From NCBI RefSeq assembly GCF_050320075.1, contig NZ_CP190018.1: a stretch of 64,000 nucleotides of DNA; one strand, written 5' to 3'. The position numbers and the translations under genes are program-made. The notes under the pieces were generated by a model that saw only the letters and a list, made by a program, of their open reading frames with translations, had not been told where the DNA came from and searched no databases. Of the stretch, positions 16,764 to 28,481 are shown piece after piece (the first letter of the stretch is position 1; every line of letters begins with the position of its first letter). This DNA comes from Escherichia coli (GTDB lineage: Bacteria > Pseudomonadota > Gammaproteobacteria > Enterobacterales > Enterobacteriaceae).

Positions 16764-16778
16764 TGGTGGAGCTGGCGG
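16764..16778. repeat. attR-side direct repeat (copy of the ssrA 3'-terminal 15 nt)
   Basis: TGGTGGAGCTGGCGG is identical to 28467-28481; flanking bases partly similar (AGTT.GAA). Confidence 0.75.
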
Positions 16779-16840
16779 AGTTTGAATAAATGATGTATTG
16801 CTTTGATTTTTAATGATTTTGTTTAATTCAGTTTTTGTAC

Positions 16841-16859
16841 GTATACCTAATCGTATACC
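16841..16859. promoter_or_regulatory. GTATACC repeats near attR (candidate integrase arm-type sites)
   Basis: GTATACCTAATCGTATACC; the same heptamer recurs four times next to the int start at 28305-28352. Confidence 0.4.
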
Positions 16860-16948
16860 AATGGCTGTAAGTTAATGTGAAATGAAAGCGCATTTTTACT
16901 TGGATTGATGCTATATCGTACAGAAAAAAATTTTTTTTTCGAAAGAAC

Positions 16949-17040
16949 TGTTCACACTGTTCACCTTTCATTTTTCTCTTTTAATTTCAGTGTGATAACG
17001 GGTGAATATACGGTGAAGGGTGAACAGTGGATTGTTCACC
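16949..17040. promoter_or_regulatory. cluster of P4 type-I iteron octamers (TGTTCACC/GGTGAACA), ori- or crr-like
   Basis: TGTTCACA 16949-16956, TGTTCACC 16958-16965, GGTGAACA 17019-17026 and TGTTCACC 17033-17040 (last two form an inverted pair), plus degenerate GGTGAATA and GGTGAAGG; adjacent A7T10 tract. Confidence 0.6.
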
Positions 17041-17090
17041 TTCGGGGAATTCAGGGATAAAAAAAGACCGGCAGATGCCGGTCAGGTGGG

Positions 17091-19424
17091 TCAGGCTGTT
17101 GCAGGGTCGTCACATTTTGGCAGCCAGTCGCCGTAGCTTTCCTCTTTCAGCGTCAGGTTGGTCTGTATCCCCTGTTTGGTATGGCGCTTCTCGTAATTCA
17201 GTCCGTATTCCTTCAGCATCACCGGCAGCCCCAGCCCGAACATTTTCAGACTGAGTACGTTCCGGTAGCCGTTTGCCTCCATGTAGGCCAGATAGGCGTG
17301 ATAGAGGTATTTACGGTAATTGCGCGGGATGATGCTGGCGTTCCCCATATACATGCCGCTGGTCTGCGGCAGGGTTTCCAGATAGCCGATAAAATCAAAC
17401 GTCGGGTCGGCATCCCGTTTGATGTTCAGCGCCTCGTCTGAGTTCTGCTGGGACTGAAGCAGTGACCGGGCGAGCATCGGGTCGCTGAACTTCTGCATCA
17501 GGTGACGCACGATGACCGCCAGCTCGCGGGTGATTTTGTCCTTAAGCTGCGGGTCGCGCTCCTGCGGGGCTATCTGTTCCGGGAAGTGAATAATCACCCG
17601 CCGGCGTGACACGCCGCCGCTGCGGTCGGTGAAGCGCATCGGGTTATTGTTCACGGCCAGAATTACCGCCGGGATATGCGTGGAGTATGCATCCCGGTAT
17701 TTCGGGTCAACGGACACCGCATCGCCGCCGGTGATGGCCTTGAGTCCGGCACCGTCGCCGCTCCATTTTTCCTGGTCCGGCAGGCGTATCAGTGAGAAGC
17801 CAGTTAACGCGGCACGTTCACGCGGGGATTCCAGCGTCTCGATGGTGGCCGACGTGGCGTTATCCTCACCGGCCAGCAGGGTGGCTATTTCGGCCATGAT
17901 ACTTTTGCCGCTGCCGCCGGGACCGGTCACCTCCAGAAAGAGCTGCCAGTCGTAGCGGTTTGCCAGCACCATAAACAGTGCGGCCAGAATCACGTCGCGT
18001 TTTTCCGCACGACCACCGGCGGCACGGTCAAGCCAGCGCCAGAACGCGGGGGCGTGGGTTTCCAGCGTTTCCCCTTCCACCGGCGGGGTGAAATCCACAT
18101 CGCACAGGGTGCGCATCCAGTGTGACGGACTGTGCGGGTGGAACGTGCCGCTCTGCGTGTCGAGCACGCCGTTACGAAAGCCAATCAGGCGGCGGGAGGG
18201 GGCTTCCTGCTGCGGAATAATCAGCTTCAGGGTGTCCACCACGGAGGCCACCTTCCCGGAGGAGAACGGCGCGCGCAGACGCTGAAACAGCCCGGCCACA
18301 TCCCGGGCAAAGTCCTGTGGTGGCAGCACCTTCCAGACACCATTTTCATAACGGGACAGAAGCTGGCCGTTGGCATCAACCGCGAGCGCCTCGCCGTAAT
18401 GCTCATAGATACGCATGGCCTTTTCGCTGGTACTCATGGCGGAAAACTCCGCTTCGCTCATGGTGTCGAACGGGCTTTCAGCCGGTGGCCGGATGGCATC
18501 ATAAATGGCCTTACGGGTGGCTTCCCCGCCGTACTGCGTGAAGGCATCATTCCAGTCACCGAAGACCGGCGGCAGGGCAACAACACCTTCACACGCATCT
18601 GCGGCTGCGGCGGCTTTTTTCTGGCCGTCACCGCTGAGGTCACGGTCAGCAGCAAGGACAATCTGACAGGCCGGATGCTTCTGCCGGGCAAGGCTGGCCA
18701 GAGAAAGGAGATTCACGGAAGAAAGCGCCACCATCACCGTTTCACCGGTCAGGTGATGCACGGTAAGTGCGGTCGCGTATCCCTCCGCTATCCACAGACG
18801 TTTTCCGGCCTGATTCTGTCCTTCAAGGGTGTGACAGGTGCCCCTGACCTGTCCGCCTTTCAGGGTGCGCTTACGGCCGTCAGCACTGATTAACTGAAGG
18901 TTAACCAGTTCGCCGCTGTCGTCATACAGTGGCACCACAAGGTCACCGGCGCGCCAGCTCACGCCACCGGCTCTGTGTGTGCCGGTCAGCATCCGGCATT
19001 CCCGGCCGGGAAAGCCCTTGCGGGTCAGGTAGGCGTTACCGGTTCCGGGACGGGTTTTCGCCATCAGGGTTTGTGCCAGTGCGGCGGCGTTCTTCCGGGC
19101 AGCGTCTGTTTCAGCACCGGCGGCGGTCGTCACTGCCGGGTCAGCCGGGGGCAGGCTGCCGGTCACGGCAGCCACCTTTGCGGCCGCGTCGGACGGGGAA
19201 ACACCAAACACCTTTTCAACCAGTTTCAGGCCGTCACCGGCACCACACTGATTGCAGTACCAGGTGCCGCGCCCCTCCCTGTCATCAAAACGGAAGCGGT
19301 CACTCCCGCCACAGACCGGACAGGGCTGATGACGGTTCTTCAGCACCTGAATCCCCAGCGCCGGGAGAATACGCGGCCAGTGGCCGAGCGCATGGCTGAC
19401 GGTGGCGGTTACGTTCATTTTCAT
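17091..19424 (-). CDS. P4 alpha-type bifunctional primase/helicase
   Basis: 777-aa ORF (same length as P4 alpha); N-terminal zinc-finger CPVCGGSDRFRFDD...WYCNQCGAGDG; strong AAGGAG SD 8 nt upstream. Confidence 0.9.
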   Translation of the reverse strand: MKMNVTATVSHALGHWPRILPALGIQVLKNRHQPCPVCGGSDRFRFDDREGRGTWYCNQCGAGDGLKLVEKVFGVSPSDAAAKVAAVTGSLPPADPAVTTAAGAETDAARKNAAALAQTLMAKTRPGTGNAYLTRKGFPGRECRMLTGTHRAGGVSWRAGDLVVPLYDDSGELVNLQLISADGRKRTLKGGQVRGTCHTLEGQNQAGKRLWIAEGYATALTVHHLTGETVMVALSSVNLLSLASLARQKHPACQIVLAADRDLSGDGQKKAAAAADACEGVVALPPVFGDWNDAFTQYGGEATRKAIYDAIRPPAESPFDTMSEAEFSAMSTSEKAMRIYEHYGEALAVDANGQLLSRYENGVWKVLPPQDFARDVAGLFQRLRAPFSSGKVASVVDTLKLIIPQQEAPSRRLIGFRNGVLDTQSGTFHPHSPSHWMRTLCDVDFTPPVEGETLETHAPAFWRWLDRAAGGRAEKRDVILAALFMVLANRYDWQLFLEVTGPGGSGKSIMAEIATLLAGEDNATSATIETLESPRERAALTGFSLIRLPDQEKWSGDGAGLKAITGGDAVSVDPKYRDAYSTHIPAVILAVNNNPMRFTDRSGGVSRRRVIIHFPEQIAPQERDPQLKDKITRELAVIVRHLMQKFSDPMLARSLLQSQQNSDEALNIKRDADPTFDFIGYLETLPQTSGMYMGNASIIPRNYRKYLYHAYLAYMEANGYRNVLSLKMFGLGLPVMLKEYGLNYEKRHTKQGIQTNLTLKEESYGDWLPKCDDPATA

Positions 19425-27076: not shown

Positions 27077-27094
27077 ATATGATCCTTGTTCAAA

Positions 27095-28282
27095 TTAAAG
27101 AGTGGTTTGCAATCCCCACCAATTCATTAACTCTATACGTTGTTCTAAATAGGTACTTCTATTGTAAGCTTTTCGAACCTCATTCCTCTCGGAATGCGCC
27201 AATGCTGCTTCAATAACATCAGGATTAAATTCTGCTTCGTTCATTGCCGTACTGGCAATTGATCTTAGTCCATGGGCCACTAACTTACCGCCATAACCTA
27301 TTCTCTTCAAGGCAGCGTTTGCCGTCTGACTGTTCATCGGCTGTTTTGGATCGTTTCTGCTCGGGAAAATATGTTCACGGTGACCACTGATAGGCTTCAT
27401 TACTTCCAAAATACCTAAAGCCTGAGGTGACAAAGGGACAATGTGTTCACGTTTAGCCTTCATTCGTTCGGCGGGAATCGTCCAGAGTTTGGCCTCGAGA
27501 TCGATCTCGACCCACCGAGCACCAGAAGCCTCAGAAGGGCGCACTAGGGTCAGGAGCTGCCACTCGATAAGACAGCGAGTCGGAACAGACAGATTCGACA
27601 TTACCAGAGAACGCATCAGCTTAGGTAATTCTTCGGGTCGTAGCGTGGGCATATTCTGCTTTTTGGGTTTCTCAAATGCCATTCCAACACCTGATGCTGG
27701 ATTTGCATCAATTAGACCAGTGTTTACGGCATAAATCATTATCTCGTTAATGCGCTGTACCAGACGACGTACCGTCTCTAGCGCGCCACGTGCTTTGATT
27801 GGTTCGAGGGTTTCAACAAGTGTTCGGGCTTTGATTTGCTGAACAGGGAGCTCACCGATGGCAGGTAATACATCTTTTTCCAGGGAACGCCAAATGTCTT
27901 TCGCGTAATCAGGGGTAACGCTTTTGCTTTTTATCTGGAACCAGTTGGTCGCAACAGTCGAAAAAATACTGTCTAGAGCTATCTGTTGTTGTTCTTCGAT
28001 AAATTCAGCTTGAACTTGTGGGTCTATACCATTAGCCAACAAAGCAAGGTAATCCGCTCTTAACCGTCGAGCATCAGCAAGTGAAAGGGCGGGGAAAGCA
28101 CCAAGCCCCATCATTGTCCGCTGTTTTGTTGCTGGACGTTGATAACGGAAACGCCACAACTTCTTACCGTTCGTTTTAACGAGCAGAAAAAGGCCATCGC
28201 CATCATGTAACGTTAGATCCTTTTCTAACGCTTTAGCGCGCAGAACTTCGGTGTTGGTCAGGGGGCGTGTTGTTCTTGCCAC
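27095..28282 (-). CDS. int: tyrosine site-specific integrase (P4/CP4-57 IntA type), ssrA-specific
   Basis: 395-aa ORF with GTG start; catalytic motifs AHGLRSIA and KAYNRSTYLE; next to the ssrA 3' end. Confidence 0.9.
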   Translation of the reverse strand: MARTTRPLTNTEVLRAKALEKDLTLHDGDGLFLLVKTNGKKLWRFRYQRPATKQRTMMGLGAFPALSLADARRLRADYLALLANGIDPQVQAEFIEEQQQIALDSIFSTVATNWFQIKSKSVTPDYAKDIWRSLEKDVLPAIGELPVQQIKARTLVETLEPIKARGALETVRRLVQRINEIMIYAVNTGLIDANPASGVGMAFEKPKKQNMPTLRPEELPKLMRSLVMSNLSVPTRCLIEWQLLTLVRPSEASGARWVEIDLEAKLWTIPAERMKAKREHIVPLSPQALGILEVMKPISGHREHIFPSRNDPKQPMNSQTANAALKRIGYGGKLVAHGLRSIASTAMNEAEFNPDVIEAALAHSERNEVRKAYNRSTYLEQRIELMNWWGLQTTL

Positions 28283-28304
28283 TGTGGCCGCTCCTTCATG
28301 AATT

Positions 28305-28352
28305 GGTATACGTGTTTAGGTATACATCCTACCGTATACCTAAACGTATACC
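28305..28352. promoter_or_regulatory. four GTATACC/GGTATAC repeats in an imperfect inverted arrangement upstream of int (candidate arm-type sites / int promoter region)
   Basis: GGTATAC at 28305 and 28319, GTATACC at 28334 and 28346. Confidence 0.45.
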
Positions 28353-28466
28353 AATAATCACTGGATTTAGCTGGATATCCTCGGACAATGGTAGACACAA
28401 AAAAGCCCGCAGAGCTTGTGCCATGCGGGCTTTCAGGATTTCTCCGGACGTATCCGGAAGAGCAAG

Positions 28467-28481
28467 TGGTGGAGCTGGCGG
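28467..28481. repeat. attL-side direct repeat (ssrA 3' terminus)
   Basis: TGGTGGAGCTGGCGG, identical to 16764-16778. Confidence 0.75.

What the first reader, a model, noticed from the sequence alone, without database searches (positions are those of the whole stretch)
16764..28481. Complete-looking 11.7-kb P4-like satellite prophage integrated in ssrA
The gene order int / cargo / cos / psu-delta-sid / iterons / vis-like / small ORFs / alpha primase / iterons, and exact length matches to P4 proteins as I recall them (Sid 244, Delta 166, Psu 190, alpha 777 aa), indicate an intact P4-type satellite. All core ORFs are open, and a cos site and both iteron clusters are present. K-12 carries a different, larger element (CP4-57) at this site.
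Basis: partly seen in the sequence, partly recalled or inferred. Interest (0 to 1): 0.6.

Follow-up and report, generated by a model that had tools for sequence, protein, structure and literature searches.

The report
P4-type satellite prophage in ssrA
This is an intact-looking copy of the well-known phage satellite P4, inserted at the end of the tmRNA gene with a different integrase and a swapped-in, untested candidate anti-phage gene; it is an ordinary member of a very common family.

Summary
Window 16764-28489 is an 11.7-kb element bounded by a 15-bp exact repeat of the ssrA 3' end. Its 7.2-kb arm from alpha to cos is colinear with phage P4 at 98.5% identity. All nine P4 core reading frames are full length, and cos, the ori iterons and the CI immunity RNA are present.

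Three qualifications apply:
- The integrase/att module is not P4's. It is IntA/CP4-57-type (62% identical to IntA, 37% to P4 Int), which explains the ssrA site.
- P4's gop-beta-cII genes are replaced by one AT-rich 908-aa gene. It encodes a STAND (NB-ARC) NTPase with a predicted N-terminal HEPN RNase domain, a TPR-like sensor and a small C-terminal beta-barrel.
- The crr has lost one of its two 120-bp repeats, which is rare among E. coli P4-like elements.

None of this is new in kind. P4-like satellites with a variable psu-int defence hotspot are well described. 244 of 5,426 complete E. coli genomes carry a P4 backbone at this junction. The cargo protein is listed, unannotated, in Rousset et al. 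2022, and its architecture was predicted in 2013. Its anti-phage role is well supported by context but untested. Mobility cannot be judged from sequence.

The parts
16764..16786 (.). attR: pseudo-ssrA 3' end (15 bp exact core TGGTGGAGCTGGCGG, imperfect to 23 nt); same junction as 'psaA' at the right end of CP4-57 in K-12
16840..16862 (.). two direct arm-type repeats CGTATACC (candidate integrase arm sites, attR side)
   Evidence: function inferred
16926..17045 (.). crr (cis replication region): a single hybrid 120-bp repeat with 5 type-I iterons (TGTTCACC family); P4 and strain Ec-U3 have two repeats plus a 60-bp spacer
17059..17083 (-). alpha terminator hairpin (position transferred from the P4 annotation)
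17091..19424 (-). alpha primase-helicase, 777 aa, 6 aa differences from P4
19439..19759 (-). orf106 (cnr position; DUF5375), identical to P4
19895..20350 (-). orf151, 4 aa differences from P4
20343..20630 (-). epsilon (helper derepression), 95 aa, 1 aa difference
20623..21039 (-). immunity region (legacy 'cI' ORF; annotated as Icd-like in RefSeq), 100% identical to P4
20875..20962 (-). CI immunity RNA (Rfam C4 antisense RNA, 74.9 bits)
21070..21160 (-). leader with CI-RNA target sequences (Rfam isrK 69.7 bits; c4-a1b1 49.5 bits)
21219..21485 (-). vis (AlpA-family excisionase/regulator), 88 aa, 1 aa difference from P4
21765..21868 (.). ori: six type-I iterons, as in P4
22039..22773 (+). sid (capsid size determination), 244 aa, 2 aa differences
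22770..23270 (+). delta (late-gene transactivator), 166 aa, 4 aa differences
23344..23916 (+). psu (polarity suppression/capsid decoration), 190 aa, 6 aa differences
24081..24099 (.). cos 19-nt cohesive-end sequence GGCGAGGCGGGGAAAGCAC; the 120 bp to its left are 118/120 identical to P4 and P4 similarity ends about 31 bp to its right
24350..27076 (-). hotspot cargo: 908-aa HEPN-like / NB-ARC STAND NTPase / TPR-like / C-terminal beta-barrel protein (WP_089620504 family); GC 31-39% against 51-63% in the backbone
27095..28282 (-). integrase, 395 aa, IntA/CP4-57 family
28305..28355 (.). four arm-type repeats (2 x GGTATAC[GA], 2 x CGTATACC) on the attL side
   Evidence: function inferred
28403..28417 (-). 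terminator-like hairpin downstream of ssrA, lying inside the element
28467..28489 (.). attL core, overlapping the 3' end of an intact ssrA (28467-28829, minus strand)

Best explanation
**What it is.** This is a P4-type phage satellite, integrated as a prophage at the 3' end of ssrA, built from three modules.
- Module 1 (16.9-24.1 kb) is essentially phage P4. It holds alpha primase-helicase with ori and crr for replication, the CI antisense RNA for immunity, vis, epsilon, delta, sid and psu for exploiting a P2-like helper, and cos for packaging by the helper terminase into small capsids.
- Module 2 is an IntA-type tyrosine integrase with its own arm repeats. It recombines at the last ~15-23 nt of ssrA and regenerates the tmRNA gene.
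- Module 3 fills the psu-int 'hotspot' slot. It is a single foreign gene for a STAND NTPase.

**How the cargo most likely works.** It is most likely a one-gene abortive-infection defence. The TPR-like region senses a phage product, NTP-dependent oligomerisation of the NB-ARC module follows, and the N-terminal HEPN domains are brought together to cleave RNA. The C-terminal beta-barrel may bind nucleic acid.

**Shown versus inferred.** Sequence identity, gene integrity, site, domain folds and conserved catalytic motifs are shown. Excision, replication, packaging and all steps of the defence mechanism are inferred.
For: **P4 module.**
- Colinear with P4 at 98.5% identity.
- Nine core ORFs are full length with 0-6 aa changes.
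- cos, ori iterons and the CI RNA with its targets are present.
- Unit length is 11,703 bp against P4's 11,624 bp, matching the ~11.6 kb packaging optimum (PMC9942202).

**Integrase and site.**
- PRK09692 581 bits; 62% identical to IntA, 37% to P4 Int.
- Catalytic R/HxxR/H/Y residues are visible in the alignments.
- The junction is identical to that of CP4-57.
- The same backbone and site occur in 244 of 5,426 complete E. coli genomes, with cargo differing between strains. This is the hotspot behaviour described in PMC9122126.

**Cargo domains.**
- Invariant Walker A (APGGxGKT), Walker B (CIDNLE) and R102-N103-x3-H107 in 32 homologs at 32-60% identity.
- NB-ARC Pfam hits in 20 of 32 members.
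- The AF2 model has mean pLDDT 83, and its best solved matches are Apaf-1, CED-4 and plant NLRs.
- The nearest annotated AFDB folds outside the family are Swt1-like HEPN.

**Cargo context.**
- Same slot in a Yersinia P4-like satellite at ssrA.
- In the gpA/ogr-portal hotspot of a Vibrio P2-like prophage.
- Beside McrBC and type I R-M in Klebsiella.
- Near an R-M pair in Acinetobacter.
- GC 31-39% against 51-63% in the backbone.
- The same architecture (HEPN + STAND + TPR + S1/OB) was predicted as a conflict system in PMC3710099.
Against: **Mobility.**
- crr has one repeat instead of two. Only about 5% of E. coli genomes with a P4-type crr lack the two-repeat form. I could not verify from held literature that one repeat suffices.
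- Vis is P4-type, 36% identical to the AlpA that partners IntA in CP4-57, so excisionase-integrase compatibility is assumed rather than shown.
- No helper phage is visible in the window.

**Cargo.**
- No PADLOC, NCBIfam or PHROGs family matches it.
- No Pfam HEPN model hits any of the 32 family members.
- The C-terminal barrel has no significant sequence match to solved structures.
- Three of eight sampled homolog neighbourhoods show no defence genes.
- No clear promoter lies upstream of the cargo gene.
- No experimental test of this protein was found.
Confidence: 0.8

Rival explanations
1. The element is a sequence-intact but immobile (cryptic) satellite. Loss of one crr repeat, or a mismatch between P4-type Vis and the IntA-type integrase/att, prevents replication or excision. 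It would persist only as a chromosomal island carrying a defence gene.
For: There is a single crr repeat where P4 and the nearest relative Ec-U3 have two. The single-repeat form is rare, at most about 5% of genomes with a P4-type crr. Vis is only 36% identical to AlpA, the natural partner of IntA in CP4-57. The att arm repeats differ from P4's.
Against: All protein genes are intact with very few substitutions, which argues against long decay. The remaining crr repeat keeps all five iterons. The P4 backbone plus this integration site occurs in 244 genomes with different cargos, implying the Vis/Int combination spreads. From memory, unverified here, Flensburg & Calendar 1987 reported that one crr repeat is sufficient.
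Confidence: 0.17
2. The 908-aa cargo is not an anti-phage effector. It could be a STAND-type regulator (MalT/GutR-like signal-transducing ATPase), or a selfish toxin that stabilises the satellite.
For: Some database names for homologs are regulatory ('transcription activator gutR', 'MarR family regulator'). There is a winged-helix segment after the NTPase. No known defence HMM matches it. Bacteroidota homologs lie in ordinary metabolic neighbourhoods.
Against: The winged helix is a standard part of NB-ARC modules (Apaf-1/CED-4 matches). The invariant Rx4H motif sits in a HEPN-like fold. The gene occupies the P4 and P2 defence hotspots and lies beside R-M/McrBC loci. In one test, 6 of 8 randomly chosen unknown P4-hotspot loci protected against phage (bioRxiv 10.64898/2026.02.27.708500).
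Confidence: 0.12
3. The element is a variant or remnant of CP4-57, or another non-P4 island such as a PICI, that merely shares a few P4-like genes.
For: The integrase family and integration site are those of CP4-57.
Against: Apart from int, there is no gene-content overlap with CP4-57. The 7.2 kb from alpha to cos are 98.5% identical and colinear with P4.
Confidence: 0.01

Closest known systems
Enterobacteria phage P4 (NC_001609 / X51522)
   Same: The alpha-to-cos arm (crr, alpha, orf106, orf151, epsilon, CI RNA, vis, ori, sid, delta, psu, cos) is colinear at 98.5% identity. All proteins have identical length. Genome size is nearly the same (11,703 vs 11,624 bp).
   Different: The integrase is only 37% identical, and the attachment site is ssrA rather than P4's own attP core and arm repeats. 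gop-beta-cII are replaced by one 908-aa gene. There is one crr repeat instead of two.
P4-like satellites with a psu-int defence hotspot (de Sousa & Rocha 2022, PMC8628076; Rousset et al. 2022, PMC9122126)
   Same: It has all seven family components in the canonical order. A variable cargo sits next to cos between psu and int. The integrase is exchanged relative to P4, as those papers describe. The exact cargo accession WP_089620504 appears in Rousset's Table S1 as 'hypothetical'.
   Different: Nothing essential. The single crr repeat is unusual. Only 7 of 5,426 complete genomes carry this cargo in this element.
CP4-57 cryptic prophage of E. coli K-12
   Same: It uses the same integration site, with an identical junction beside ypjA. 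The integrase is of the same family, 62% identical to IntA.
   Different: CP4-57 is 22 kb with entirely different gene content: no sid/delta/psu/cos and no P4 alpha.
Antiviral STAND NTPases (Avs/AVAST, TIR-NLR of the P4 hotspot, bNACHT) and the 'HEPN + STAND-ATPase + TPR + S1' architecture of Anantharaman et al. 2013 (PMC3710099)
   Same: The layout is tripartite: N-terminal effector, central NB-ARC-type NTPase and C-terminal helical-repeat sensor. It has a predicted Swt1/Abi2-type HEPN effector and a C-terminal small beta-barrel. It is located in defence hotspots.
   Different: It is not detected by the PADLOC models for Avs or any other system. Its trigger, target and phenotype are unknown. 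The tested 'HEPN-TPR' P4 system of Rousset et al. is an unrelated Apea-type protein.

Membership tests
P4-like satellite (seven core components of de Sousa & Rocha / SatelliteFinder) | Presence of int, psu, delta, sid, alpA/vis, epsilon and alpha, co-localised in the canonical order | tested here: met
   All seven are present and full length, in the P4 order
P4-like satellite | P2-type cos site next to the psu-int hotspot | tested here: met
   The 19-mer lies at 24081-24099. The flank is 118/120 identical to P4
P4-like satellite | alpha-dependent replication elements ori and crr with type-I iterons | tested here: inconclusive
   ori has its six iterons intact. crr has only one of two 120-bp repeats. 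Whether that suffices was not verifiable here
P4-like satellite | RNA-based immunity (CI RNA and its target sequences) | tested here: met
   Rfam C4 74.9 bits, c4-a1b1 49.5 bits, isrK 69.7 bits. The region is 100% identical to P4
P4-like satellite | Genome size compatible with the small (Sid-directed) capsid, ~11.6 kb | tested here: met
   11,703 bp between the att core starts; PMC9942202 gives the size optimum
P4-like satellite | Helper (P2-like) dependent excision, replication, packaging and transfer | not testable with these tools
   Needs induction or transduction experiments
Phage P4 proper (same element as NC_001609) | P4 Int with its attP core and arm repeats | tested here: not met
   The integrase is 37% identical to P4 Int. 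There is no DNA similarity left of P4 position 4291 apart from ~31 bp at cos
Phage P4 proper | gop-beta-cII non-essential region | tested here: not met
   It is replaced by the 908-aa gene
IntA/CP4-57-type ssrA integrases (NCBIfam PRK09692) | Score above the curated cut-off, and integration at the ssrA 3' end | tested here: met
   581 bits against a cut-off of 434. The att repeat is the ssrA 3' end. The junction is the same as in K-12
STAND (NB-ARC/AP-ATPase type) NTPase | Walker A/B NTPase followed by helical and winged-helix domains; structural similarity to Apaf-1/CED-4/NLRs | tested here: met
   The motifs are invariant. NB-ARC Pfam hits occur in 20 of 32 members. Foldseek top hits are Apaf-1, NRC2, CED-4 and ZAR1-type structures
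Named antiviral STAND systems (Avs1-5 and others in PADLOC-DB v2) | Match to the system's HMM | tested here: not met
   The only hit is a 44-residue P-loop match to PDC-S27, E=2.6e-4
HEPN superfamily (Swt1/Abi2 clade) | Conserved Rx4-6H motif | tested here: met
   R102-N-x3-H107 is invariant in 32 homologs
HEPN superfamily (Swt1/Abi2 clade) | All-alpha HEPN fold | tested here: inconclusive
HEPN superfamily | RNase activity | not testable with these tools
   Requires biochemistry
Anti-phage defence system (any) | Protection against phage infection | not testable with these tools
   Only contextual evidence is available. No published test was found

The most novel reading that the evidence does not exclude
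The 908-aa cargo (HEPN-like / NB-ARC / TPR-like / OB-like barrel) would be a functional single-gene antiviral STAND system that no current defence catalogue recognises. The family is widespread: about 900-aa homologs occur in Gammaproteobacteria, Bacteroidota, Cyanobacteria and other phyla. It would act by trigger-induced oligomerisation and HEPN-mediated RNA cleavage. Its C-terminal nucleic-acid-binding barrel could add an RNA-sensing or RNA-targeting step not seen in the characterised Avs proteins.
Probability: 0.55. Interest if true: 0.45.

Novelty: new member of a known kind. Interest (0 to 1): 0.3.

Why it matters
As a satellite it adds little. [quoted passage not shown] Two things have practical value. 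First, the cargo is a clean, well-supported candidate for experimental validation of an untested but widespread HEPN-STAND family. Second, this natural single-crr P4 variant could show whether one repeat is enough for satellite replication.

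Tried and rejected
**Database searches for the cargo that found nothing useful.**
- PADLOC, NCBIfam and PHROGs gave no family.
- Pfam gave only weak AAA_16/nSTAND1 hits for this protein.
- A profile search against PDB sequences returned only generic TPR proteins.
- A profile of the C-terminal barrel against PDB gave nothing significant.

**Checks against published systems.**
- Rousset's tested 'HEPN-TPR' P4 system is a different, Apea-type protein.
- The accession was not found in the supplements of the 2026 P4/P2 hotspot preprint, the 2026 STAND census or DefensePredictor.
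- 'Reve' (single gene, KAP P-loop) from the 2026 preprint could not be excluded by sequence. However, its described hits (KAP P-loop family, ORC ATPase motor module) differ from the NB-ARC, Apaf-1/CED-4/NLR matches found here.

**crr sufficiency.** Two literature searches were unproductive, and the 1993 P4 review is not held. A genome survey was used instead.

**Other.**
- The promoter scan around int and the cargo was no better than shuffled sequence.
- A 15-nt copy of the cos core inside int (28088-28102) was treated as probable chance. It is absent from K-12 intA and the Yersinia int.
- The idea that the element is a CP4-57 variant was rejected on gene content.

Full report

Yes. ARAGORN and Rfam place an intact tmRNA gene at 28467-28829 on the minus strand. 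The last 15 nt of ssrA (TGGTGGAGCTGGCGG on the plus strand) recur exactly at 16764-16778, and an imperfect extension takes the repeat to 23 nt. The two copies are 11,703 bp apart.

Between them, reading from ssrA, lie:
- a 395-aa integrase (27095-28282, minus strand);
- a 908-aa ORF (24350-27076, minus strand);
- the P2/P4 cohesive-end 19-mer (24081-24099);
- psu, delta and sid;
- six ori iterons;
- vis;
- the immunity region, epsilon, orf151 and orf106;
- the 777-aa alpha primase;
- crr iterons.

**2. Alignment with P4.**

Megablast against 50,697 phage records finds P4 as the only extensive match. In a direct blastn, P4 4469-11624 aligns colinearly with window 16922-24080 at 98.5% identity with two gap openings. 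A further ~31 bp across cos also matches.

Each of the nine annotated P4 reading frames in that arm maps to a window ORF of identical length, with no gaps and no internal stops. Differences are 0-6 amino acids per protein:

| Gene | aa differences from P4 |
|---|---|
| alpha | 6 |
| orf106 | 0 |
| orf151 | 4 |
| epsilon | 1 |
| legacy cI ORF | 0 |
| vis | 1 |
| sid | 2 |
| delta | 4 |
| psu | 6 |

Rfam independently recognises the CI immunity RNA (C4 family, 74.9 bits) and its upstream target region (c4-a1b1 and isrK).

**3. Where it departs from P4.**

(a) Integrase and attachment site.
- There is no DNA similarity to P4 positions 32-4290, which hold gop, beta, cII, int and attP.
- The integrase is 37% identical to P4 Int and 62% identical to IntA of K-12's CP4-57.
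- It scores 581 bits on NCBIfam PRK09692, against a cut-off of 434.
- The right junction (pseudo-ssrA followed by the sequence upstream of ypjA) aligns base for base with the right end of CP4-57 in K-12.
- Candidate arm-type repeats (CGTATACC / GGTATACG) flank both att cores and differ from P4's arm repeats.

(b) crr.
- P4 has two 120-bp repeats separated by 60 bp.
- The window has a single hybrid repeat (16926-17045) with all five iterons.
- The closest E. coli relative (strain Ec-U3, 99.8% identical overall) has both repeats, so this is a recent deletion by recombination between the repeats.
- A survey with the two-repeat P4 crr as query found it in 1,077 of 5,426 complete E. coli genomes. 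In 1,020 of those, at least 80% of the query was covered. The single-repeat form is therefore rare.
- I could not confirm from the held literature whether one repeat suffices. My recollection that Flensburg & Calendar (1987) found one repeat sufficient is unverified.

(c) Cargo.
- gop-beta-cII are replaced by one gene with GC 31-39%, against 51-63% in the backbone.

**4. How common is this?**

A 451-bp probe spanning the ypjA-side flank, attR and crr is at least 80% covered in 244 of 5,426 complete E. coli genomes. The whole element, including this cargo, is at least 80% covered in only 7 genomes. Many other genomes have the same backbone and site with other cargo, annotated for example as SIR2, NACHT or hypothetical proteins.

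This is the pattern published for P4-like satellites. They are found in about 44% of E. coli isolates, their integrases are often exchanged, and a high-turnover defence hotspot lies next to cos between psu and int (PMC8628076, PMC9122126). A 2026 preprint reports that 6 of 8 randomly chosen unknown P4-hotspot loci protected against phages.

**5. What is the cargo?**

Database and literature status:
- Sequence libraries give little. Pfam returns only weak AAA_16/nSTAND1 hits, and PADLOC, NCBIfam and PHROGs have no family for it.
- The exact protein, WP_089620504, is listed as 'hypothetical' in Rousset et al.'s table of P4-hotspot contents. It is not among their tested systems. Their 'HEPN-TPR' is an unrelated Apea-type protein.
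- I found no trace of it in three later data sets.

Family and conserved motifs:
- A database search shows a full-length family of about 900-920 aa. Homologs are 59-60% identical in Pantoea and Yersinia, and 32-36% identical in Klebsiella, Vibrio, Shewanella, Acinetobacter and many Bacteroidota.
- In a 32-sequence alignment the Walker A (APGGxGKT), Walker B (CIDNLE) and an N-terminal IRNxxSHP motif (R102, N103, H107) are invariant.
- Twenty of the 32 members hit Pfam NB-ARC, and several hit TPR families. No Pfam family covers the first 170 or the last 80 residues in any member.

Structure:
- The AlphaFold2 model has mean pLDDT 83.
- It shows a helical N-terminal domain (1-160), an alpha/beta NTPase with helical and winged-helix parts (180-490), a long helical-repeat region (493-835) and a five-stranded beta-barrel (839-907).
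- Foldseek against the PDB puts Apaf-1, CED-4 and plant NLR resistosomes first, and AVAST5 also appears.
- In AFDB50 the nearest annotated folds outside the family are 'Swt1-like HEPN'.
- Taken with the invariant Rx4H motif, the HEPN assignment is likely but not proven.

Prior description:
- The 2013 HEPN census lists this architecture under the Swt1/Abi2 clade: 'STAND-ATPase, TPR, S1', with N-terminal HEPN plus STAND plus a C-terminal cold-shock-like OB fold (PMC3710099). The architecture is therefore known from computation and has not been characterised experimentally.
- The OB/S1 identity of the C-terminal barrel rests on that paper and on the strand pattern of the model. A profile search against PDB sequences found nothing.

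**6. Context of cargo homologs.**

| Organism | Neighbourhood |
|---|---|
| Yersinia canariae | Same slot (smpB-ssrA-int-cargo) of a diverged P4-like satellite; int 75%, alpha 60% identical |
| Vibrio fluvialis | In a P2-like prophage between gpA/ogr and the portal/capsid genes, the P2 hotspot |
| Klebsiella | Beside McrBC and a type I R-M system |
| Acinetobacter | A few kb from a SinI-type R-M pair |
| Alcanivorax | Next to NERD/UvrD-type helicases |
| Shewanella, Chitinophaga, Sphingobacterium | Uninformative |

Four of the eight sampled homolog loci lie in mobile-element hotspots or beside R-M/McrBC-type defence genes. With the window locus, that makes five of nine.

**7. Mechanism.**

For the satellite I adopt the established P4 cycle; this rests on general knowledge of P4 and was not tested here.
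- CI RNA maintains immunity.
- When a P2-like helper is present, epsilon derepresses it and delta transactivates its late genes.
- alpha replicates the excised circle from ori with crr.
- Sid forces small capsids, and Psu decorates them and inhibits Rho.
- The helper terminase cuts at cos.
- Integration and excision would be carried out by the IntA-type integrase at the ssrA core, with Vis as directionality factor.

The compatibility of P4-type Vis (36% identical to AlpA) with this integrase is inferred from how widespread the combination is.

For the cargo the most likely mechanism is that of other antiviral STANDs. The repeat region recognises a phage-derived ligand, the NTPase oligomerises, and the N-terminal HEPN domains are activated to cleave RNA, leading to abortive infection.

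The gene starts 18 nt after the int stop and has its own AAGGA ribosome-binding site. It has no convincing promoter of its own, so co-transcription with int is possible.

**8. Verdict.**

The element is a mosaic, sequence-intact P4-type satellite of a common and well-described kind. Its unusual points are a rare single-repeat crr and a rare, untested cargo from a computationally predicted HEPN-STAND family. Neither would surprise a specialist. The cargo is a reasonable candidate for validation. Interest is 0.3.

Noticed in passing
window 28088-28102 (inside the int ORF): An exact 15-nt copy of the cos core (GGCGGGGAAAGCACC) lies about 4 kb from the real cos. It is also present in the Ec-U3 copy of the element, but absent from K-12 intA and the Yersinia integrase. 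By my own estimate about 0.07 such matches are expected by chance in 12.5 kb, so it is probably coincidence.
   Followed up: partly
window 16840-16862 and 28305-28355: Octamer repeats CGTATACC / GGTATAC(G/A) occur as two direct copies near attR and four copies (two inverted, two direct) near attL. They are candidate arm-type binding sites for the IntA-type integrase and are unlike P4's attP arm repeats.
   Followed up: partly
window 28403-28417: The only terminator-like hairpin downstream of ssrA lies inside the element. tmRNA transcription termination in this strain therefore appears to be supplied by the satellite.
   Followed up: no
window 11900-16603: A 1,567-aa ORF immediately left of attR is the YpjA/EhaD adhesin-like autotransporter. 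The listed ORF starts at a GTG and is about 40 aa longer than K-12 YpjA, so the true start is probably further downstream.
   Followed up: no
L002 (E. coli Ec-U3) about 3270 versus window 16764-16778: The attR core of the otherwise 99.8%-identical Ec-U3 element has a 1-nt deletion (TGGTGG-GCTGGCGG) relative to the window. This shows that the pseudo-ssrA repeat drifts.
   Followed up: no
L012 (Vibrio fluvialis) 5135-12990: A homolog of the cargo sits in a P2-like prophage between gpA/ogr and the portal/capsid genes. The same protein family is therefore carried in both the P4 and the P2 defence hotspots.
   Followed up: partly
L003 (Yersinia canariae) 7781-17554: This is a diverged P4-like satellite at ssrA with the same int-cargo pair (20-nt spacing). 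Its called genes show an 81-aa Ogr/Delta and no recognisable psu. The int-cargo pair may therefore move as a unit.
   Followed up: partly
window 50129-50267, 55043-55151, 46698-46823: Rfam also reports RyfD, StyR-44 (in the rRNA operon spacer) and the Phe leader. These are ordinary chromosomal features for this region and are unrelated to the finding.
   Followed up: no
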